Of a stretch of 64,000 nucleotides of DNA, positions 4,671 to 53,885 are shown piece after piece. The notes beneath the pieces are model-generated. The model was not told where the DNA came from. It did no database searches and saw only the letters and a list, made by a program, of their open reading frames with translations. Source of the DNA: a virus (lineage: Duplodnaviria; Caudoviricetes); the IMG/VR virus record IMGVR_UViG_3300028833_000074, positions 1 to 64,000 of that record, one strand, 5' to 3'. A program made the position numbers and the translations under genes. Position 1 is the stretch's first letter; each line of letters begins with the position of its first letter.

Positions 4671-5609
4671 ATGGCAAAGAGTTTAGCAAATTTCGCTGGT
4701 GGGGGCGCTGTTGTACACGATAACAGATTTGACCCAGAATTATCTGAAGACATTATCCAATACATCGAACAAGAATCCGACTTCAGACAATTTGTTGCAA
4801 AAGTTATTTCTACCGATACTTACGTAATTAATCTCCCAAGAAAATGGGCAGCCGGTATTGCAGTAGAAATCGTAGAAGGTTCCGAAATTCCTAAAGCAAG
4901 AGATGTATACGACGTCTTAACCATCAATTTAAGACAAATCGGTACTGGTATCAAAATGACCGATGAAGAACAAAAAATGATGGGCTTCGACAACAACTAC
5001 TTCTTAACTGAAGGAAGAAGAGCAACCGAAAGATTACTTAAAAAAGAAAACGACGACATTGCAGCAACTTTATTAACTGGTGCTGGATACAACATTATCA
5101 CTTCCACCAACACAACCTTAAAATTTGATGATATAGTAACTGCAAAAACTGAAATGCAAGAAAATCCATATGGAATTAACCCAGATGTTATTTTAATGTC
5201 TCCACGTTCTTACGCAGATTTATTAAGAGACCCAGACTTTAAAACTTATTCCAACTCCGGTATCGCTGGAGTAGTTACATCTGGAACTGTAGGAGAATAC
5301 GTTGATGGTATGAGAATTCTTATCATTCCAGAAGTTAAAGACGACATCTACTTAATTGATACATCTCAAGAACCACTTGTATTAATCCAAATGGATAGCG
5401 TACATACTGAATCTTACAGATTACATGAAACTCGTGAAGATGTATTAGACATTAATCTTTATGAAAAACCAGCAGTCTTAAGACCAGACGCAATTTGTAA
5501 AATAACCATTACAAGAAACGACACTCTCAAACAAAGAGAATTCCCAGAAGGCTGGGACCCATTCGATGGATATCCACAAAGGCCATCTCCCAGCGGGTCC
5601 GGAGGGTAA
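4671..5609 (+). CDS. Major capsid protein (HK97 fold)
   Basis: 312 aa in the expected position. E-loop 'EIVEGSEIP', backbone helix, 'PDVILMSPRSYADL', 'VDGMRILI', C-terminal 'VLRPDAICKI'. Confidence 0.88.
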   Translation: MAKSLANFAGGGAVVHDNRFDPELSEDIIQYIEQESDFRQFVAKVISTDTYVINLPRKWAAGIAVEIVEGSEIPKARDVYDVLTINLRQIGTGIKMTDEEQKMMGFDNNYFLTEGRRATERLLKKENDDIAATLLTGAGYNIITSTNTTLKFDDIVTAKTEMQENPYGINPDVILMSPRSYADLLRDPDFKTYSNSGIAGVVTSGTVGEYVDGMRILIIPEVKDDIYLIDTSQEPLVLIQMDSVHTESYRLHETREDVLDINLYEKPAVLRPDAICKITITRNDTLKQREFPEGWDPFDGYPQRPSPSGSGG

Positions 5610-5952
5610 CTCCGGTGGTCAACAAGGTCAAGGCGACCAACAAGGTCAAGGTGGCCAACAAGGTCAAAATGACCAACAAGCAACAACACATAATGTAACA
5701 TTTACTGTTACAAATGCTACTAACCAAAAATTATCTGGTGTAACTGTAACATTAACAGACATCAATGATAGTACCAATACTGCATCTGATATAACAGATA
5801 GCGATGGTAGTGTTAGTATCGCTGTTAAGGCCGGTACTTATTCTGTAACTGCAGAAAGAGATACATATACAGCCCCAGCAAGCATTGAAAATGTAACTGT
5901 AACTGATGCTGACGTTGATGTTGCTACTGCGATTGTAATGACAAAAGATTAA
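5605..5952 (+). CDS. Gly/Gln linker + Ig-like (carboxypeptidase-regulatory-like) domain; probable +1-recoded C-terminal extension of the MCP
   Basis: Lies in the +1 frame and overlaps the MCP stop (GGG TAA C -> GGT AAC). No convincing independent start. Ig-like pattern 'VTFTVTN...LSGVTVTL...TDSDGSVSIAVKAGTYSVTAERDTY'. Confidence 0.7.
   Translation, partial: GNSGGQQGQGDQQGQGGQQGQNDQQATTHNVTFTVTNATNQKLSGVTVTLTDINDSTNTASDITDSDGSVSIAVKAGTYSVTAERDTYTAPASIENVTVTDADVDVATAIVMTKD
5620..5679 (+). repeat. 18-bp tandem repeat (CAACAAGGTCAA core) encoding a QQGQG(D/G) linker
   Basis: Three units plus a partial fourth: caacaaggtcaaggcgac / caacaaggtcaaggtggc / caacaaggtcaaaatgac / caacaa. Confidence 0.85.
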
Positions 5953-21752: not shown

Positions 21753-23159
21753 ATGTCTAAACAAAATAAAGACACAAATACAACACCATCTATTCAATCA
21801 ATACAAAATTTAGGTAGCGCAGCAAAAACAACAGTACCCAGCAACGAGTTCGTTGTCATCACAAAAGCCGATAATTTAGCGCATAATTACTTTCATTATT
21901 GCGAAGTTTATTGGGATATTGGCGACTGCCTTTCACAAGCCATCATACGCTTTTCAAAATCAAACCACACAAACACAAACTACTGGTTAAAATACGAAGG
22001 CGACATATGGTTGTATACCGGTCATGATATCCATAAGGATTCAAAAAGCAATCAAGAATATTATGATTTGGATGTTGGGGAACCGCCCTTTTTTGTCGGC
22101 GAAGTATATGACGTGCAAGAATACGCATATGAATTTGAAGTAAAAATACGTAGCATAGGCTTTAGATTTAAACAAAGCATTCCAGATGAGTTTAGACAAG
22201 CATATATCAATGGACAAAATGTTCGTGACGCCTTCCAAGCCATATGTGAATTTTTAGGTGTCAAATATATTTGCCCACCACAAAATGTACAACTTAATGC
22301 TAATGCCAGTTTAGGTGGTACTGAAAAAGAATTAGAGCAAACGCAACAAAAAGAACAAGCATTAGCGACACAAATTGCACAAAAAGCCACTAAAGAATTA
22401 AATAAAACAGAAACTAATAATAAAAATCAAACTTCAGACAACGCAACAGAAAATCAAGATAACAATGCCGACACAGAAAGCGTGCAAGACACACCACAAC
22501 AAGGATATAACAATGTTAGTTTTGATGCAAATGGAGCCATTACATATAATGATACAGTTATTGAAATTTCACCAGACACTTCACAAACACTTATGTCAAT
22601 GACAGATGATGCATTTAGCGCATACGCCGAAGATGATACACATGTCATAGACGATATCAAAGATTTTTTAAACAATAAAGTTTTTGAAGAAATACATCCA
22701 TTCTATTTAGATTATGGCTCTGTAACAATCCCCCCAAGTAGCACAACATCAAGTGATATGTCATCTATGGGTGGTGGGGCTGCAAATGGAGGAAGTACAT
22801 CTCCAGCAGACCAAGAAGCGATTACATCATTATCAAGTTTAGTTCAAAAATATTACCCAGCGTCTAAAGATAAAAATAAATGGGTCAATAAATTAAAAGA
22901 ATGCGACAATAATTGGTCAGCAGTTGCAACTATTGTTAATCAAATGGGTGGAGATAAGGACAAACAAAATAACGTTATTAAAGAAGCATTAAAAATTAAA
23001 AAACAATATAATAAGAAGAAAAGCCAAGAAAAACAAAATAAAAAACCAACATACAAGGTTAGAGACACCATGAAGGCTGCCGGAATACCAACAAACCTCA
23101 ATGCATCAGATGAGGCGATTGGTAAAGCATTAAATAAAATGTTCCGAATTAATAAGTGA
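21753..23159 (+). CDS. Baseplate hub-like protein A (N-terminal hub half + low-complexity tail)
   Basis: 'FFVGEVYDVQEYAYEFEVKIRSIGFRFKQ...VRDAFQAICEFLGV' resembles XkdQ/gp27-type hub N-halves. Paralog of the ORF ending at 25822. Confidence 0.6.
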   Translation: MSKQNKDTNTTPSIQSIQNLGSAAKTTVPSNEFVVITKADNLAHNYFHYCEVYWDIGDCLSQAIIRFSKSNHTNTNYWLKYEGDIWLYTGHDIHKDSKSNQEYYDLDVGEPPFFVGEVYDVQEYAYEFEVKIRSIGFRFKQSIPDEFRQAYINGQNVRDAFQAICEFLGVKYICPPQNVQLNANASLGGTEKELEQTQQKEQALATQIAQKATKELNKTETNNKNQTSDNATENQDNNADTESVQDTPQQGYNNVSFDANGAITYNDTVIEISPDTSQTLMSMTDDAFSAYAEDDTHVIDDIKDFLNNKVFEEIHPFYLDYGSVTIPPSSTTSSDMSSMGGGAANGGSTSPADQEAITSLSSLVQKYYPASKDKNKWVNKLKECDNNWSAVATIVNQMGGDKDKQNNVIKEALKIKKQYNKKKSQEKQNKKPTYKVRDTMKAAGIPTNLNASDEAIGKALNKMFRINK

Positions 23160-46789: not shown

Positions 46790-48388
46790 ATGGCAACAAT
46801 CAATGATGTATACACACACTTAAAAACCCTAACAAAAAAATGGTTTTATGAAAAAACCGAAGTTGATACAAAATTAAGCAACAAAGTCGATAAAGAAACT
46901 GGCAAAGGTTTATCAACTGAAGATTATACTTCAACTGAAAAAACTAAATTAACCAATATTGAAAATGAAGCGAATAAAACTACTGTTGATGCAGCATTAT
47001 CTGATTCTTCCAGTAATCCGGTAAGAAATTCTGCAGTAACGACAGCAATTAATGGTAAGGCACCAACATCCCATGCATCCTCATCAAATACTTATGGATT
47101 AGGTACAACAACTAATTATGGTCACGTTAAAACCATTAATGGATTGACACAAGATTCTCATACAAATGGTACAGCATTAAGTGCATATCAAGGTAAAGTA
47201 CTTAATGATGCCATCGGTGGTAAAGTTGATAAAGTTGTCGGAAAAGGTCTATCAACAAACGATTTTACTGACACATATAAAAATAAAATCGACCAATTGG
47301 GTGAAGATTTAGATAGTATTAATTTAGACTGGGATAGTATTACTCAAAAACCAAGCAGTTACCCACCTACCGCTCACCAACATAATGCTTCTGATGTGCT
47401 TGAGAGTGACAATACCGATTATCAATTTTTAACTGTATCCGCTGGCACCACACAGCATCATCTTAATTTGGATATTGATAACGCACTTGATACATTAGAC
47501 ACAAACATTAGTAATATTAGCACAGATTGGGATGATATAGGAAATAAGCCTACCAATTTTACACCAGCAAGTCATACACATGGAAATATTAGTAATGATG
47601 GGAAAATAAGTGAAGTAAACATAAGTATAAGTTCAAATGATTACCCGGTTATCTGCAAAAATGATACAGGAGCAATAATAAAGGGTAGTGCATTATTTTC
47701 TACTAAAATAGTAAATTCAGATGCATTATCAAATATTAATTTGCCGAATAAGTCTATACAATCAGATATTAATGCTGCAATTGACACCAGTATTGGTTAT
47801 ATCAACACTTCACTCAATGACAAAGCAGATTCTTTACATACACATCCTCAATATTTAGAACGCCAGCAAATAAAGACTATAAATAACAATTCGCTCATTG
47901 GAGCTGGAAATATTGATTTAAATATACCTACATCTACAAGTGAATTAACAAATGATGGAGATAGTCAAGGTAATATATATTTAACCACCAGTGATGTTAT
48001 AGATGATTTGACATCTAATACTTCTAATGCCCCTTTAAGTGCAAAACAAGGAAAAGTGTTAAAAAGTTCAGTTGATAGTAAAGCAAATCAATCAGACCTT
48101 ACCGCCTTAACTTCTCGTGTTTCCAGTTTAGAAACTTCTGAATTCCAAATTGTATTCAAATCATCCAAAAATGCATTGCCAGCAACTGGTAGGGCGAATA
48201 CACTTTATTATGTGTCAAATAGTGGCTCTGGAGAGAATACATATGATGAATACACTTGGGTAGCAGCAGATAGCAAATATGAGTTAGTAGGTTCCAAAGA
48301 AATTGATTTAAGTGGTTATGTGCAAAAAACAAATTTAATAACCGAAATAGACACAATCATACAATCCCTTAATGCAATACAAGAATAG
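46790..48388 (+). CDS. Tail fibre protein
   Basis: 'KVDKETGKGLSTEDY', 'KVDKVVGKGLSTNDFT', 'APTSHAS...YG.GTTTNYGHVK', HxH motifs, 'LSAKQGKVL', 'YDEYTW...YELVG..DLSGY'. Confidence 0.85.
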   Translation: MATINDVYTHLKTLTKKWFYEKTEVDTKLSNKVDKETGKGLSTEDYTSTEKTKLTNIENEANKTTVDAALSDSSSNPVRNSAVTTAINGKAPTSHASSSNTYGLGTTTNYGHVKTINGLTQDSHTNGTALSAYQGKVLNDAIGGKVDKVVGKGLSTNDFTDTYKNKIDQLGEDLDSINLDWDSITQKPSSYPPTAHQHNASDVLESDNTDYQFLTVSAGTTQHHLNLDIDNALDTLDTNISNISTDWDDIGNKPTNFTPASHTHGNISNDGKISEVNISISSNDYPVICKNDTGAIIKGSALFSTKIVNSDALSNINLPNKSIQSDINAAIDTSIGYINTSLNDKADSLHTHPQYLERQQIKTINNNSLIGAGNIDLNIPTSTSELTNDGDSQGNIYLTTSDVIDDLTSNTSNAPLSAKQGKVLKSSVDSKANQSDLTALTSRVSSLETSEFQIVFKSSKNALPATGRANTLYYVSNSGSGENTYDEYTWVAADSKYELVGSKEIDLSGYVQKTNLITEIDTIIQSLNAIQE

Positions 48389-48396
48389 GTGATACG

Positions 48397-49455
48397 ATGG
48401 CAAACATTCAAGATGTATATGGTCATCTGAAAACACTTACAAAAAAATGGTTTTATGACAAAACAGAAGTAGACAATAAATTAAACAATAAAGAAAGCAC
48501 TTCCAATAAAACAAGTTCTTGGAATTCAACCACAAACAATACAAGATATCCTACAGAAAAACTGGTGAAAGATAGTCTTGATGAAAAAGCAAACAGTACA
48601 CATACACATACAAAATCCCAAATCACAGATTTCCCAAATATTCCTAATGCTTCTTCTACCACTCCATCTGCCGACACAACATCTGGGTCTGTAGGAAATG
48701 GCACCACTTGGGCAAGGAGCAATCATACCCATCCAAAGAGTTTATTATATGCAGAAGCAGACCACACACACGATGATATTCAAAGTTTTGATGTTGTTTA
48801 TTTACCATTTTGTATAGAAGATGTGATAGCAAGTGGATATGCGACAAATTATGATGATGATGATATGGGGGGTGTATTACTCGATTATATACGTGGTGAG
48901 ATGAACATACTACCTACATTGAATAATCATACTATTTATTTAATTGTAAACAATTATAATCATATGGAAAATGGTTTTAGTAATATGAGTAAAAATGTTT
49001 TTAGAAAATTCATTTATATTGCAGAGAAATATGCATCAGATAACGCTAATATCACTTATGGTATGCAACAAACTGGAACAGAAGAGTATATGGAAGAAAT
49101 TAGTATCAGTTATGATGAAATCTCTGATATGTTAAGTAATAAGGCGGACAGTACACATACACATACAAAATCCCAAATCACAGATTTCCCAAATATTCCT
49201 AATGCTTCTTCTACCACTCCATCTGCCGACACAACATCTGGGTCTGTAGGAAATGGCACTACTTGGGCAAGGAGTAATCATACTCACCCAAAAAGTTCCT
49301 TGTATGCAGAGGCAAATCATACTCATAGTGAATATGTTAATCCTACAATCGTGGATAATTTAACTACAAATGATGCTACAAAAGTTTTATCTGCAAAACA
49401 AGGAAAAGTGTTAAATGGACTTATAGGTGATGCAATTGAGTATATTAACCAATAA
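48397..49455 (+). CDS. Tail fibre protein with an internal 59-aa duplication
   Basis: N-terminus nearly identical to that of 46790. 'HTHTKSQITDFP' occurs twice; 'LSAKQGKVL'. Confidence 0.85.
   Translation: MANIQDVYGHLKTLTKKWFYDKTEVDNKLNNKESTSNKTSSWNSTTNNTRYPTEKLVKDSLDEKANSTHTHTKSQITDFPNIPNASSTTPSADTTSGSVGNGTTWARSNHTHPKSLLYAEADHTHDDIQSFDVVYLPFCIEDVIASGYATNYDDDDMGGVLLDYIRGEMNILPTLNNHTIYLIVNNYNHMENGFSNMSKNVFRKFIYIAEKYASDNANITYGMQQTGTEEYMEEISISYDEISDMLSNKADSTHTHTKSQITDFPNIPNASSTTPSADTTSGSVGNGTTWARSNHTHPKSSLYAEANHTHSEYVNPTIVDNLTTNDATKVLSAKQGKVLNGLIGDAIEYINQ
48593..49325 (+). repeat. 178-bp direct repeat (48593-48770 and 49148-49325)
   Basis: The first 112 bp are identical; the remainder differs mostly at synonymous positions. 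Confidence 0.9.
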
Positions 49456-49473
49456 TAATAGGAGAACAATATA

Positions 49474-50505
49474 ATGCCATCTTATAATTATAATTGGGAA
49501 ACATCTGATTTTAGTATGGGATTAGGTGAAACTGTAACTATTACATTAAGTTATATCAATAAAGGACAAAGTATCCCTATTTTTGAAGATGGTGTTCAAA
49601 TAGGTACAACAACAACAAACACTTACAATTATACTCCAACAAGTAATGGAACACATACTCTGCATTACTTTGATACTATTTATTGTGAACCTTTGACTGT
49701 TATTGTAACTGGTAACGATACTACAACCCTTAATGGTGCTTTAACAGAACTTGGGGAAACTTTGGCAGATAATCTTGAGAGTATGGGAGTAACTGCAAGT
49801 GCAGATGATGGATTGACAACATTAGCAGTAAAAATACTTAAAATAGGTAAAAATACACCAACACCATCTACTGTCATCTATGAAGATGATTGTAGTGTAG
49901 ACAATACAAACGATTATGGTAGCAGTATACCTTTAAGGAATGGGTCATCAACTATTGCTTATAATAGTAATGGATACTACACCATTACTAATAATAGTTC
50001 TAATTCAGAGAGTTTTATCCCCATAACTGAATTAACTGGACTTACTACTGATTTTACACTTGAATATGACTCCTATGTTCAACAAATAGGTGGTTCAAGT
50101 GGATTAGTAATTTATAATTCATCTACTGCTTGGGTTAAATTGACTGATGATGCAAGTAGTGATAAGAGATTGTGGCATGGTTATAATGATGGTAGTTTTC
50201 ACGAAACTGGTTTCTCTGGTACTGAAACATCATATCAGAAATGGGTTCATTACAAATATACTGTTCAAGATGGTGTTTTTACTATGAAAGTAACTTATAA
50301 TGATAATCAAATTGCTTTTTATGTTACACAAATACATTTTACAATAAATAGTAGTACAAAAATCGGTTTGGATAGCGAATGGGCTTCAAATACTGTTACA
50401 AGATATAAGAACATTATTGTTAAGACATTAGGTAGTGGTGATTGCAGTCAGTACACTACACAAATCAACAATGCAATTGCTTACATAAATGGAGATGGTA
50501 ACTAA
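49474..50505 (+). CDS. Receptor-binding/fibre protein with a lectin-like (ConA/LamG-type) domain
   Basis: Anchor motif 'LADNLESMGV..DGLTTLAVKILKI'; beta-sandwich region 'DFTLEYD...KWVHYKYTVQDG'. Confidence 0.55.
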   Translation: MPSYNYNWETSDFSMGLGETVTITLSYINKGQSIPIFEDGVQIGTTTTNTYNYTPTSNGTHTLHYFDTIYCEPLTVIVTGNDTTTLNGALTELGETLADNLESMGVTASADDGLTTLAVKILKIGKNTPTPSTVIYEDDCSVDNTNDYGSSIPLRNGSSTIAYNSNGYYTITNNSSNSESFIPITELTGLTTDFTLEYDSYVQQIGGSSGLVIYNSSTAWVKLTDDASSDKRLWHGYNDGSFHETGFSGTETSYQKWVHYKYTVQDGVFTMKVTYNDNQIAFYVTQIHFTINSSTKIGLDSEWASNTVTRYKNIIVKTLGSGDCSQYTTQINNAIAYINGDGN

Positions 50506-51308
50506 TGACTAATGACACAACAACTCTTCAAGGTAGCCTTGATGAAATGAAAGACCAGTTAATCTACGAATTAGGTGAAAAGGGAGTTACTACAAGTTAT
50601 GATTCTACTACTGGTTTGTTAGGTTTGATTAATAAGATTAGTGAGATTCAACAAGGGGGTGGTGGTCAAGAGATTGTTTCTTTTGATAATATCACAACAG
50701 AATTTAATTATACACAAAAAAGAGGGAATTATGGATTTAGTGTTAGTATTCCAAGTGGTGTTACAAGTTTAGGAAAAAATTGCTTTAATGGTTGTAGTGG
50801 TTTGACTAATGTTACTATCCCAAGTAGTGTTACAAGTATAGGAGATAGTTGTTTCCAAGGTTGTAGTAGTTTAACCAGTATTACTATTCCAAGTAGTGTT
50901 ACAAGTATAGGAGGTTTTTGTTTCTATAGTTGTAGTGGTTTGAATAGTATTACTATCCCAAATAGTGTTACAAGTATAGGGAATAGTTGTTTCTATAGTT
51001 GTAATGGTTTGAATAGTATTACTATCCCAAGTAGTATTACAAGTATAGGGAATAGTTGTTTCTATAGTTGTAAGGGTTTGAATAGTATTACTATCCCAAG
51101 TAGTGTTACAAGTATAGGAAGTAATTGTTTCAGAAATTGCACTAAACTTGTGGATTATCAATTATACTGGGAAACACCACCAGTAACTTGGTCTTCCAAC
51201 TTAATGCCAAATAACACAAACACATACTTCACTATACCTCAAGGAACAACTGCTAATTATGTAGCGAAAAGTTTCCCAAGTGGTAAACTTGTTGAAAGAA
51301 GTGGATAA
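50505..51308 (+). CDS. BspA-type leucine-rich-repeat (LRR_5) receptor-binding protein
   Basis: Six 23-aa repeats 'IPSSVTSIGxxCFxxCxxLxSIT' after an N-terminal anchor helix. Confidence 0.9.
   Translation: MTNDTTTLQGSLDEMKDQLIYELGEKGVTTSYDSTTGLLGLINKISEIQQGGGGQEIVSFDNITTEFNYTQKRGNYGFSVSIPSGVTSLGKNCFNGCSGLTNVTIPSSVTSIGDSCFQGCSSLTSITIPSSVTSIGGFCFYSCSGLNSITIPNSVTSIGNSCFYSCNGLNSITIPSSITSIGNSCFYSCKGLNSITIPSSVTSIGSNCFRNCTKLVDYQLYWETPPVTWSSNLMPNNTNTYFTIPQGTTANYVAKSFPSGKLVERSG
50748..51152 (+). repeat. Six 69-bp tandem repeats (LRR coding)
   Basis: Units start at 50748, 50817, 50886, 50955, 51024 and 51093. Units 3-5 are nearly identical. Confidence 0.92.
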
Positions 51309-52764: not shown

Positions 52765-52784
52765 TAGATAAATAAGTGGATACT

Positions 52785-53885
52785 ATGAAATCAACATTAA
52801 TTAAACAAGAAGCAAAAGAAATACAAGCATTCATTGAAAAAAACAAAGAATTGCCAAAAATCTGTACCATTAATGGTAATGAATACAGCATCTACAGCAC
52901 TTCTTACTTGATTGCAAAATTGCTTGACACCAAACAAAGTGACATCAAGCCGATAACTGTATCAGCACCATCAACAACAATCACGACAAAAATCAATGAA
53001 CAAGTCACATCCCCAGATTATAAGGATATGATTAAAAGATTTGTCCAATATGTTGAAGCCAACAAAAAGGTGCCGGCATACGTCACTACAGTCAAAAGCA
53101 AAACAAAAGTTGAATACAAATTATTTGTATATTGCATGTGTAAGATAATCAATTTTTACTATAAGAATTCTAATACCTTGCCATTGTATTGTGTATTTAA
53201 TGATGCGGATTTTAAAAAATCTGCAACCACTACAAAAACTACACAAAAAACAACAAAGACATCTACATCAGCAACAAAAAAAACAACAACAAAATCAAAA
53301 TGTAGCAACCCATACACATCATCACCACATTACACCTCAAATGGCTGTAATAAATTAGGACAATGCACCGGATGGTGGTGCGGTCCTCATTCCATTCACC
53401 AAGCAATACGCAAATTCGGTATCACAAAATATACCGAAAAACAAATTGCTGGATGGGCTGGTACCACAACTGCCGGAACTGGACATTCTGGCTTGAACAC
53501 AGCAATTGCAAAAATATCAAACATGAGCGGTAAAAAATTATCTGTACAATGGAAAAATTTCTCCGATATGGGTGCGAACAGCGCAGAACGTTTTGCTAAT
53601 ATCGCTAAATTAATTTGTAAAGACGATGTTGCAATTATCTGGCATATTGCATATATCAATGGGGGTAACAGTACAAGCGGCAAACACTTTGGACACTATG
53701 AATGCATTGACAAAATCAATACAGCAACCAAGTATGTAAGAGCGCTTAACTCATTAGGCGACAAAAAATCTGATGGCAGTTATGCTGGAAAACTACAAGA
53801 CAGACCATATGATGTTCAAGGATACTTTGCACGCAATACGCCAGGCGGACAGCCAGCATTATGTATCATTAAGGTGATAAAATGA
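52785..53885 (+). CDS. Endolysin: pseudomurein endoisopeptidase-like (pseudomurein-binding repeats + C39-type cysteine peptidase, PeiR-like architecture)
   Basis: PMB-like repeats (IQAFIEKNKELP; FVQYVEANKKVPAYV; IINFYYKNSNTLP), a Thr/Lys linker, and catalytic 'QCTGWWCGPHS...GTT..GT...GHYECI...LNSL'. Confidence 0.85.
   Translation: MKSTLIKQEAKEIQAFIEKNKELPKICTINGNEYSIYSTSYLIAKLLDTKQSDIKPITVSAPSTTITTKINEQVTSPDYKDMIKRFVQYVEANKKVPAYVTTVKSKTKVEYKLFVYCMCKIINFYYKNSNTLPLYCVFNDADFKKSATTTKTTQKTTKTSTSATKKTTTKSKCSNPYTSSPHYTSNGCNKLGQCTGWWCGPHSIHQAIRKFGITKYTEKQIAGWAGTTTAGTGHSGLNTAIAKISNMSGKKLSVQWKNFSDMGANSAERFANIAKLICKDDVAIIWHIAYINGGNSTSGKHFGHYECIDKINTATKYVRALNSLGDKKSDGSYAGKLQDRPYDVQGYFARNTPGGQPALCIIKVIK

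What the first reader, a model, noticed from the sequence alone, without database searches (positions are those of the whole stretch)
5580..5952. Candidate +1 'shifty-stop'/hop that adds a Gly-Gln linker and Ig domain to the major capsid protein; the stop codon sits in the loop of a GC-rich hairpin
Seen in the sequence: the MCP ends in an unusually GC-rich run, CCC AGC GGG TCC GGA GGG TAA C. Slipping +1 on GGG (GGG->GGT, still Gly) reads AAC TCC GGT GGT CAA..., giving a GQQGQG linker and a complete Ig-like domain that has no convincing start of its own. CCGGAG (5599-5604) and CTCCGG (5610-5615) form a perfect 6-bp stem with loop GGTAA, which contains the stop. TCCGG also recurs 13 nt downstream in the +1 frame, so a short hop is an alternative route. 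Established: frameshift-appended Ig domains on capsid/tail proteins occur in bacterial phages (e.g. +1 at CCC-UAA), and a stop inside a take-off hairpin features in T4 gene 60 bypassing. Inference: a minority of capsid subunits display an adhesive Ig domain through recoding on archaeal ribosomes, where such recoding is little documented.
Basis: partly seen in the sequence, partly recalled or inferred. Interest (0 to 1): 0.85.

Follow-up and report, generated by a model that had tools for sequence, protein, structure and literature searches.

The report
Capsid +1 frameshift at rare CCC codon

Summary
The HK97-type capsid gene (4671-5609) ends in the window's most GC-rich patch. A beta-sandwich domain lies downstream in the +1 frame (to 5952). 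The stop TAA sits in the loop of a perfect 6-bp hairpin (5599-5615).

The proposed mechanism (slip on GGG-TAA, or a TCC-to-TCC hop) is not supported. In 24 distinct related junctions the codon before the stop varies (GAC, GGA, AAC, CCA, GGG). What never varies is a zero-frame CCC, the rarest Pro codon here (3.6%). It is followed by A-starting sense codons (AGC, AGT, AGG, ATC) or directly by TGA. In the window this is CCC 5589-5591 followed by AGC.

- The domain is always in the +1 frame.
- Four relatives have no start codon for it.
- Other relatives carry it fused in frame.
- One in-frame relative differs from a shifted one by a single C in the CCC run.

Best reading (about 0.8): a PSA/SPP1-type programmed +1 frameshift at CCC-A, giving a 426-aa capsid-linker-domain protein. 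The hairpin starts 10 nt after the first C of CCC and may act as a 3' stimulator, but this is unproven.

The host is a pseudomurein methanogen. The scan noted the same kind of site before on other methanogen-virus DNA. It is a new member of a known kind.

The parts
4671..5609 (+). Major capsid protein gene, zero frame (312 aa, HK97 fold); short product ends ..RPSPSGSGG
   Evidence: Pfam PF05065 and PHROG major head protein families; 120+ homologues
5588..5593 (+). Proposed +1 shift site T-CCC-AG: P-site codon CCC 5589-5591, A-site codon AGC 5592-5594. tRNA-Pro re-pairs on CCA 5590-5592 and reading resumes at GCG 5593-5595
   Evidence: CCC is invariant in 24 distinct related junctions; -1 is T (22) or C (2); +3 is A (15) or T (9); +4 is G (23). 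CCC makes up 3.6% of Pro codons
5599..5615 (+). GC-rich hairpin CCGGAG/CTCCGG with loop GGTAA; starts 10 nt after the first C of CCC; candidate 3' stimulator
   Evidence: comparable hairpins in L059, L058, L022, L032, L025; family-wide covariation inconclusive
5604..5610 (+).
   Evidence: present in the window but not conserved in relatives
5593..5679 (+). +1-frame Gly/Gln/Asn-rich flexible linker (AGPEGNSGGQQGQGDQQGQGGQQGQNDQQ)
   Evidence: pLDDT below 55 in both models; length varies among relatives
5680..5952 (+). +1-frame CarboxypepD_reg / CnaB-like beta-sandwich domain, with stop at 5950-5952
   Evidence: PF13620 E = 1e-9; AlphaFold pLDDT 96-98; Foldseek hits to CnaB2, SdrD, UafA and the CPD transthyretin-like domain
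5566..5568 (+). ATG in the +1 frame, 8 codons upstream of the shift site; not a credible start
   Evidence: no SD-like sequence upstream; arises from the conserved D-G-Y codons; four relatives have no start at all

Best explanation
This is a programmed +1 ribosomal frameshift of the Listeria phage PSA / Bacillus phage SPP1 type, carried out by the ribosomes of a pseudomurein-walled methanogen. Most ribosomes read the capsid gene to TAA at 5607 and make the 312-aa capsid protein. A fraction pause with peptidyl-tRNA-Pro on the rare codon CCC (5589-5591). The tRNA slips one base forward onto CCA, the commonest Pro codon, and decoding continues at GCG (5593). The result is a 426-aa protein: capsid residues 1-307, a roughly 30-residue disordered Gly/Gln linker, and a 90-residue CnaB/transthyretin-like beta-sandwich ending at 5952. 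Shown: the anatomy and its conservation. Inferred: (a) the slip itself; (b) that the GC-rich hairpin at 5599-5615, which sits at the mRNA entrance when CCC is in the P site, stimulates the slip in variants where CCC is followed by a sense codon, as the stop codon would in CCC-UGA variants; (c) that the domain decorates the capsid surface as an adhesin-like module.
For: 1) Frame. In 24 distinct related junctions the domain is always in the +1 frame, never in -1.
2) Site. All 24 have a zero-frame CCC followed by AGC, AGT, AGG, ATC or TGA. All 14 relatives without a shifted domain have no CCC codon in the C-terminal part, only CCA or CCT. CCC accounts for 45 of 1244 Pro codons in this genome, and CCA for 66%.
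3) No independent start. L021, L039, L041 and L042 have only 5 open +1 codons upstream of CCC, with no ATG, GTG or TTG there or in the next 24 codons.
4) In-frame fusions. L003, L027, P0043, P0044, P0072 and P0076 carry the domain fused in frame.
5) Junction pinned. L057 (ACT CCC AGG) and L027 (ACT CC- AGG) are near-identical and differ by one C in the CCC run. L027 reads ..GATP-GHEDN.., exactly the predicted trans-frame junction.
6) Persistence. On the capsid tree the CCC-stop, CCC-sense, in-frame and no-domain states interleave (11 changes over 37 rows), so the arrangement is old and maintained.
7) Stop-class bias. Stop-class sites are always TGA (9 distinct junction sequences, from 10 loci), although TGA ends only 30 of 135 ORFs in this genome.
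8) Hairpin. Stems start at +9/+10 in WIN, L059, L058, L022, L032 and L025. They are more stable than at least 94% of synonymous recodings in 8 of 15 sense-class junctions; the window's own value is 0.064.
9) Precedent. PSA cps shifts at ACA_CCC_(UCC) with a 3' pseudoknot and tsh at CCC_UGA, in a host where CCC is 5% of Pro codons (PMC5009743). SPP1 gp17.1* shifts at CCCUAA (PMC6316719).
10) Host. A pseudomurein-binding repeat is found at 52776-53885, and the nearest isolate capsids are Methanobacterium virus PhiF1 and HGTV-1.
Against: There is no protein or RNA evidence, and shift efficiency is unknown. AGC and AGT are not rare codons here (AGT is the commonest Ser codon), so there is no obvious slow A-site codon in the sense class. 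The hairpin is not conserved family-wide. Three registers occur, many relatives have only 3-4 bp, the RNAalifold consensus energy is about 0, and paired cells are 67.6% against 66% in shuffles. The window's own hairpin is only marginally better than synonymous recodings (0.064). The sequences are phylogenetically related, so the counts are not independent. The host's tRNA-Pro set was not examined.
Confidence: 0.8

Rival explanations
1. One reading: a +1 slip of tRNA-Gly on GGG-TAA-C (5604-5610) at the slow stop codon, with the stop presented in the hairpin loop. The junction would be ..PSGSGG-NSGGQQ..
For: GGG to GGT re-pairing is possible in the window, and also in L016 and L026, which end GGG TAA T. 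The site lies in the same frame overlap, so the product would differ by only 5 residues.
Against: The last sense codon is GAC, GGA, AAC or CCA in most relatives, and none of these can re-pair at +1. Nine distinct junctions have CCC directly before the stop. The 5' arm of the hairpin is inside the ribosome when GGG is in the P site. This model does not explain the invariant rare CCC.
Confidence: 0.07
2. Translational hop (bypass) from TCC 5598-5600 to TCC 5611-5613 over the stop, as in T4 gene 60. The junction would be ..PSGS-GGQQ..
For: TCCGG is repeated 13 nt apart, with a hairpin and the stop between the copies.
Against: Matched take-off and landing codons are absent in most relatives (for example L017, L001, L032) and impossible in the CCC-TGA class. 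No conserved nascent-peptide signal is evident, since the tails upstream are highly variable.
Confidence: 0.02
3. The domain ORF is a separate gene, translated from ATG 5566 (or by reinitiation), that makes a free 128-aa decoration protein.
For: An ATG exists at 5566, and gene callers annotate such ORFs separately in relatives.
Against: There is no SD-like sequence before 5566, and the ATG is a by-product of the conserved D-G-Y codons. Four relatives have no start codon at all, and no start lies near any of the stops. In-frame fusions show that the domain is normally attached covalently.
Confidence: 0.06
4. The arrangement is a dead remnant or an assembly error: an in-frame fusion broken by a 1-nt insertion in the C run, with the domain no longer expressed.
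For: L057 and L027 differ by one C, and L057 is a low-coverage contig. Read data could not be checked.
Against: At least 24 distinct sequences from independent assemblies keep the same +1 arrangement with an intact domain ORF (100-230 codons open) across deep branches of the tree. The domain models confidently (pLDDT 96-98) and is conserved. A 3-nt C run is not an error-prone homopolymer.
Confidence: 0.04

Closest known systems
Listeria phage PSA cps and tsh (also A118/A500 tsh): programmed +1 frameshifts at a CCC proline codon (Zimmer et al. 2003; reviewed in PMC5009743)
   Same: Low-GC host in which CCC is about 4-5% of Pro codons. The shift occurs on CCC either next to a stop (CCC_UGA, as in nine distinct related junctions here) or next to a sense codon with a 3' structure (cps ACA_CCC_UCC plus pseudoknot, compared with the window's TCT_CCC_AGC plus hairpin). 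The result is a C-terminally extended capsid or tail protein.
   Different: The host is archaeal. The 3' element here is a simple hairpin of variable strength, not a demonstrated pseudoknot. The fourth base in the sense class is A (re-pairing to CCA), not U. Nothing has been shown experimentally.
Bacillus phage SPP1 tail tube protein gp17.1/gp17.1* (+1 at CCCUAA; PMC6316719)
   Same: A rare CCC slips onto an overlapping frequent Pro codon. The shift adds a non-essential beta-sandwich (FN3) adhesion-type domain to a fraction (about 1 in 4) of a major structural protein.
   Different: That case is a tail tube protein, not a capsid protein. It uses a stop-codon context (UAA), whereas the window has a sense codon and its relatives use only UGA. 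The host is bacterial.
MSTV1-like 'Usuviridae' of Methanobrevibacter smithii: capsid Ig-like domain by predicted -1 frameshift at A AAG GAA (PMC11375127)
   Same: Same host group and gut habitat, and the same outcome: a fraction of HK97 capsid proteins carry a C-terminal beta-sandwich. One relative there has a direct in-frame fusion, as found here.
   Different: A different virus family (about 37-kb temperate siphoviruses, against about 150-kb genomes here). The shift runs in the opposite direction with a different signal. The capsid proteins are not close homologues (no hit).
Ig-like domains added to phage structural proteins by frameshifting (Fraser et al. 2006; T3/T7 gene 10, Lactobacillus phage A2)
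   Same: An accessory beta-sandwich at the C terminus of a capsid protein. It is interchangeably in frame, out of frame or absent among relatives.
   Different: Those classical cases are mostly -1 shifts. The domain here is CarboxypepD_reg/CnaB-like rather than I-set, Big_2 or FN3.

Membership tests
PSA/SPP1-type programmed +1 frameshift at CCC | A rare zero-frame CCC proline codon at the frame junction | tested here: met
   CCC at 5589-5591. It makes up 3.6% of Pro codons, is invariant in 24 distinct junctions, and is absent from all 14 non-shifted relatives
PSA/SPP1-type programmed +1 frameshift at CCC | A fourth base that lets tRNA-Pro re-pair on a frequent Pro codon | tested here: met
   The fourth base is A in 15 junctions and T in 9, never C or G. 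CCA is 66% and CCT 23% of Pro codons
PSA/SPP1-type programmed +1 frameshift at CCC | A pause element: a stop codon in the A site, or a 3' RNA structure | tested here: inconclusive
   The window has the sense codon AGC plus a 6-bp hairpin from +10. Nine distinct related junctions have CCC-TGA. The hairpin is lineage-specific, and covariation does not exceed the controls
PSA/SPP1-type programmed +1 frameshift at CCC | A downstream ORF in the +1 frame with no initiation signal of its own | tested here: met
PSA/SPP1-type programmed +1 frameshift at CCC | Two protein products sharing an N terminus, made in a fixed ratio | not testable with these tools
Frameshift-appended beta-sandwich decoration of HK97 capsid proteins | An HK97-fold major capsid protein with a C-terminal accessory beta-sandwich that is in frame, shifted or absent among relatives | tested here: met
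Classical Ig-like families (I-set, Big_2, FN3) | A profile match to an Ig/FN3 family | tested here: not met
   The best Pfam hits are PF13620 CarboxypepD_reg and PF17802 SpaA. The nearest folds are CnaB and transthyretin-like
   The last codon is GAC, GGA, AAC, CCA or GGG
T4 gene 60-type bypass | Matched take-off and landing codons flanking a stop-containing hairpin, conserved in relatives | tested here: not met
   The TCC/TCC pair is present in the window only. It is absent from most relatives and impossible in the CCC-TGA class

The most novel reading that the evidence does not exclude
This virus family may hold two interchangeable modes of +1 frameshifting on archaeal ribosomes: a stop-dependent mode (CCC-UGA) and a structure-dependent mode (CCC-A plus a hairpin at the mRNA entrance). 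Lineages have switched between these modes, in-frame fusion and loss of the domain several times. If so, the family would be a natural, comparative and experimentally tractable model for +1 recoding in Archaea, where only predicted +1 cases came up in the sources read here.
Probability: 0.4. Interest if true: 0.62.

Novelty: new member of a known kind. Interest (0 to 1): 0.5.

Why it matters
Programmed +1 frameshifting at rare CCC codons has been demonstrated in phages of Firmicutes. In Archaea, recoding rests on a handful of predictions. Here the same signal is conserved across a whole family of roughly 150-kb viruses of gut and rumen methanogens. The family also supplies natural controls: in-frame fusions, a single-C indel pair, and domain-less relatives. 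This fixes the junction to one codon and yields precise peptides and mutants to test. It also corrects how these capsid genes should be annotated, as one gene with two products rather than a capsid gene plus an orphan 'hypothetical' ORF. Finally, it suggests that methanogen viruses in animal guts tune how many adhesin-like domains their capsids display.

Tried and rejected
- The genome-contig scan gave only one relative, mislabelled as a Clostridia MAG.
- A family-wide conserved hairpin is not supported. The RNAalifold consensus is only 3 bp at about 0 kcal/mol. The window-register helix pairs 67.6% of cells against 66% in shuffles. I therefore treat the hairpin as lineage-specific and unproven.
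- A mononucleotide shuffle of the 45 nt after CCC gave z = -0.13 for the window, because the composition itself is GC-rich.
- The idea that the SD-like GGAGG downstream of CCC serves internal initiation was rejected, because no start codon follows it in the +1 frame.
- The 'hungry A-site codon' idea (as in Ty1/Ty3) is not supported by codon usage, since AGT is the commonest Ser codon.
- The second in-frame CCC-AGC, at 21837, closes after 13 codons in the +1 frame and is probably chance.
- The full-length model of the trans-frame protein has low confidence (mean pLDDT 60.7). It shows only a disordered linker.
- Medvedeva et al. 2023 (a compendium of methanogen viruses) is not held, so I cannot exclude that this family or its frameshift is mentioned there.

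Full report
**Observation.** The window's ORF 4671-5609 encodes a 312-aa HK97-type major capsid protein (MCP). It matches PF05065 and several PHROG 'major head protein' families. The gene ends CCA TCT CCC AGC GGG TCC GGA GGG TAA. The +1 frame is open from about 5503 to 5952. Past the MCP stop it encodes a Gly/Gln-rich stretch and a domain that matches CarboxypepD_reg (PF13620, E = 1e-9) and SpaA/prealbumin-like folds.

The stem CCGGAG (5599-5604) / CTCCGG (5610-5615) with loop GGTAA is real and is recovered by RNAfold. The patch 5583-5620 is 68% GC in a 31% GC window, and only 0.006% of 38-nt windows are as GC-rich. The one correction is that 'Ig domain' should read CnaB/transthyretin-like beta-sandwich. 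An AlphaFold model built from 16 related domains has pLDDT 96-98 over residues 31-120, and the first 30 residues are disordered. The nearest solved folds are CnaB2, SdrD B-domains, UafA and the transthyretin-like domain of carboxypeptidase D.

**What the genome is.** The window is the first 64 kb of a single 152,284-bp virus record with 30.7% GC and two tRNA-Thr genes. Among 50,697 isolate phage records, the MCP's only matches are Methanobacterium virus PhiF1 (31.8% identity) and the haloarchaeal virus HGTV-1. A window protein (52776-53885) carries a pseudomurein-binding repeat. The host is therefore very probably a pseudomurein-walled methanogen (Methanobrevibacter-like). Relatives come from gut, rumen and fermenter metagenomes, often on contigs of 135-157 kb.

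**Comparative evidence.** I collected 59 related loci. They fall into four states:
- no domain (304-305 aa MCP ending ..ERP or ..ARPQ);
- domain fused in frame (L003, L027, P0043, P0044, P0072, P0076);
- domain in the +1 frame behind a zero-frame CCC that sits directly before TGA;
- domain in the +1 frame behind a zero-frame CCC followed by 2-5 sense codons and then a stop (the window's type).

The domain is never in the -1 frame. In 24 distinct junction sequences:
- CCC is invariant;
- the base before it is T (22) or C (2);
- the base after it is A (15) or T (9);
- the next base is G (23 of 24);
- the codons following CCC are AGC, AGT, AGG, ATC or TGA.

The codon before the zero-frame stop is GAC, GGA, AAC, CCA or GGG. 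CCC is the rarest Pro codon in this genome (45 of 1244, 3.6%), while CCA is 66%. All 14 relatives without a shifted domain use only CCA or CCT in the C-terminal part of the gene. Only one other in-frame CCC-AGY/AGG/TGA exists in the whole genome, at 21837, and its +1 frame closes after 13 codons.

**Excluding the alternatives.**
- *Independent initiation.* The window's ATG 5566 has no SD-like sequence and is produced by the conserved D-G-Y codons. Four distinct relatives (L021, L039, L041, L042) have only five open +1 codons before CCC, with no ATG, GTG or TTG there or for 24 codons afterwards.
- *Pseudogene or assembly error.* The arrangement recurs in at least 24 different sequences from independent assemblies, always with an intact and well-conserved domain.
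- *Hop.* Matched TCC codons are peculiar to the window's lineage.

The junction can be pinned directly. L057 (ACT CCC AGG CCA TGA, domain in +1) and L027 (ACT CC- AGG, a 445-aa in-frame fusion on a 145-kb contig) are otherwise near-identical and differ by exactly one C of the CCC run. L027 therefore encodes ..GATP-GHEDN.., the product predicted for a +1 slip on CCC in L057.

On an MCP tree of 37 rows the four states interleave, needing 11 changes. The CCC-stop and CCC-sense forms have interconverted, and the frameshifted arrangement has been kept on both deep branches.

**Mechanism.** The best-supported reading is a programmed +1 frameshift. Peptidyl-tRNA-Pro on the rare CCC (5589-5591) re-pairs with CCA (5590-5592), and GCG (5593-5595) is read next. 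Translating the window with CCCA read as one step gives a 426-aa product..RPSP-AGPEGNSGGQQGQG.., continuing into the beta-sandwich (P0123).

This is the logic established for two bacterial phages. In Listeria phage PSA, cps shifts at ACA_CCC_(UCC_GAA) with a 3' pseudoknot and tsh at CCC_UGA, and CCC is 5% of Pro codons in Listeria (PMC5009743). In Bacillus phage SPP1, gp17.1* shifts at CCCUAA, from a rare CCC to a frequent CCU (PMC6316719).

The family seems to use both modes. With UGA in the A site the stop would supply the pause; the stop class is always TGA, in 9 distinct junction sequences, although TGA ends only 22% of ORFs. In the sense class there is no obviously slow A-site codon, because AGT is the commonest Ser codon, so a 3' element would be expected.

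It starts 10 nt after the first C of CCC, which is at the mRNA entrance when CCC is in the P site. Hairpins of 5-7 bp begin at +9/+10 in WIN, L059, L058, L022, L032 and L025, with different stem sequences, for example CCGGAG/CUCCGG, GCGGGG/UCCCGC and UCAGGG/CCCUGG. In 8 of 15 sense-class junctions the native sequence folds better than at least 94% of synonymous recodings of the +1 frame (window 0.064; L025 0.000; L058 and L032 0.006).

However, other relatives have only 3-4 bp, three registers occur, and family-wide tests are not above the controls. The stimulator role therefore remains an inference, at roughly even odds. The hairpin cannot help a slip at GGG-TAA, because its 5' arm is already inside the ribosome at that point.

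**Function of the extension (inferred).** The linker is disordered in both models and varies in length among relatives. The domain belongs to the CnaB/transthyretin-like class common in surface adhesins. Relatives tolerate 0% occupancy (no domain) and 100% occupancy (in-frame fusion). The domain is therefore an accessory surface decoration, and frameshifting would set an intermediate dose. This is the same idea proposed for frameshift-added Ig-like domains on phages and, through a predicted -1 shift at A AAG GAA, for the unrelated 37-kb MSTV1-like viruses of Methanobrevibacter smithii (PMC11375127).

**Novelty.** The kind is known, and in the library I could search only the MSTV1 paper links Methanobrevibacter viruses, Ig-like domains and frameshifting. 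It describes a different family and the opposite direction of shift. Medvedeva et al. 2023 could not be read. Notes from this scan already report the same type of CCC site on other methanogen-virus genomes (e1-5346191 CCC-UGA, e1-4195409 CCC-UAA, e1-5450436 CCC AGT GAC TGA). These agree with my reading but are not independent evidence.

I rate this a new member of a known kind. It is of moderate interest, because it corrects the site, shows family-wide conservation with natural in-frame controls, and offers a testable +1 recoding case in Archaea.

Noticed in passing
L002:3971-4666 (same in L006, L045): In domain-less relatives a 231-aa GIY-YIG-type ORF (GIYLIENKKTGQKYIGQS..) sits directly after the capsid gene, where the +1 domain lies in the window. 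It may be a homing endonuclease insertion. I identified it by eye from the motif only.
   Followed up: no
window 52776-53885: A 369-aa protein with a pseudomurein-binding repeat (PF09373, E = 1.6e-9), probably a lysis or cell-wall-binding protein. It is the best host marker in the window.
   Followed up: partly
window 46790-51308: Two proteins with phage tail-fibre repeats (PF22337) are followed by a BspA-type leucine-rich-repeat protein (PF13306, E = 1e-55). This is a likely receptor-binding or adhesion module.
   Followed up: no
L021, L039, L041, L042 (+1 ORF about 2384-2935); L025:1123-1854: Some relatives append larger extensions through the same CCC site. One clade adds two tandem beta-sandwich domains (about 178 aa) with no Gln/Asn linker. 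L025 adds 233 aa, including an extra C-terminal module of unknown type.
   Followed up: no
L053:2440-2460, L054:2440-2460: Two relatives keep a short acidic or Gly-rich tail (..GDGGP, ..GGNSP) ending CCA TAG, with no domain behind it. They look like descendants of frameshifting forms that lost the domain and changed CCC to CCA.
   Followed up: partly
L059:1125-1200 vs window 5613-5680: The Gly/Gln linker is a simple repeat (GGT CAA CAA GGY)n whose copy number differs between the window and its 91-94% identical relative. The tether length is therefore evolving fast.
   Followed up: no
L003 (JAGAIU010000011.1) and P0099: Contigs of this virus family are deposited as parts of 'Clostridia bacterium' and 'Bacilli bacterium' MAGs. 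These are probably binning errors for an archaeal virus of about 147 kb.
   Followed up: no
window 21837-21842: This is the only other in-frame CCC-AGC in the genome, at codon 29 of ORF 21753-23159. The +1 frame closes after 13 codons, so it is probably chance or a low-level abortive shift.
   Followed up: yes
junction alignment A3, positions +12 to +20 after CCC: A purine-rich, SD-like GGAGG/GAGGAG motif sits at a fixed distance from CCC (G at +13 in 24 of 24 junctions). It uses the rare codons GAG, CCG and ACG. It forms the 5' arm of the hairpins but might have another role.
   Followed up: partly
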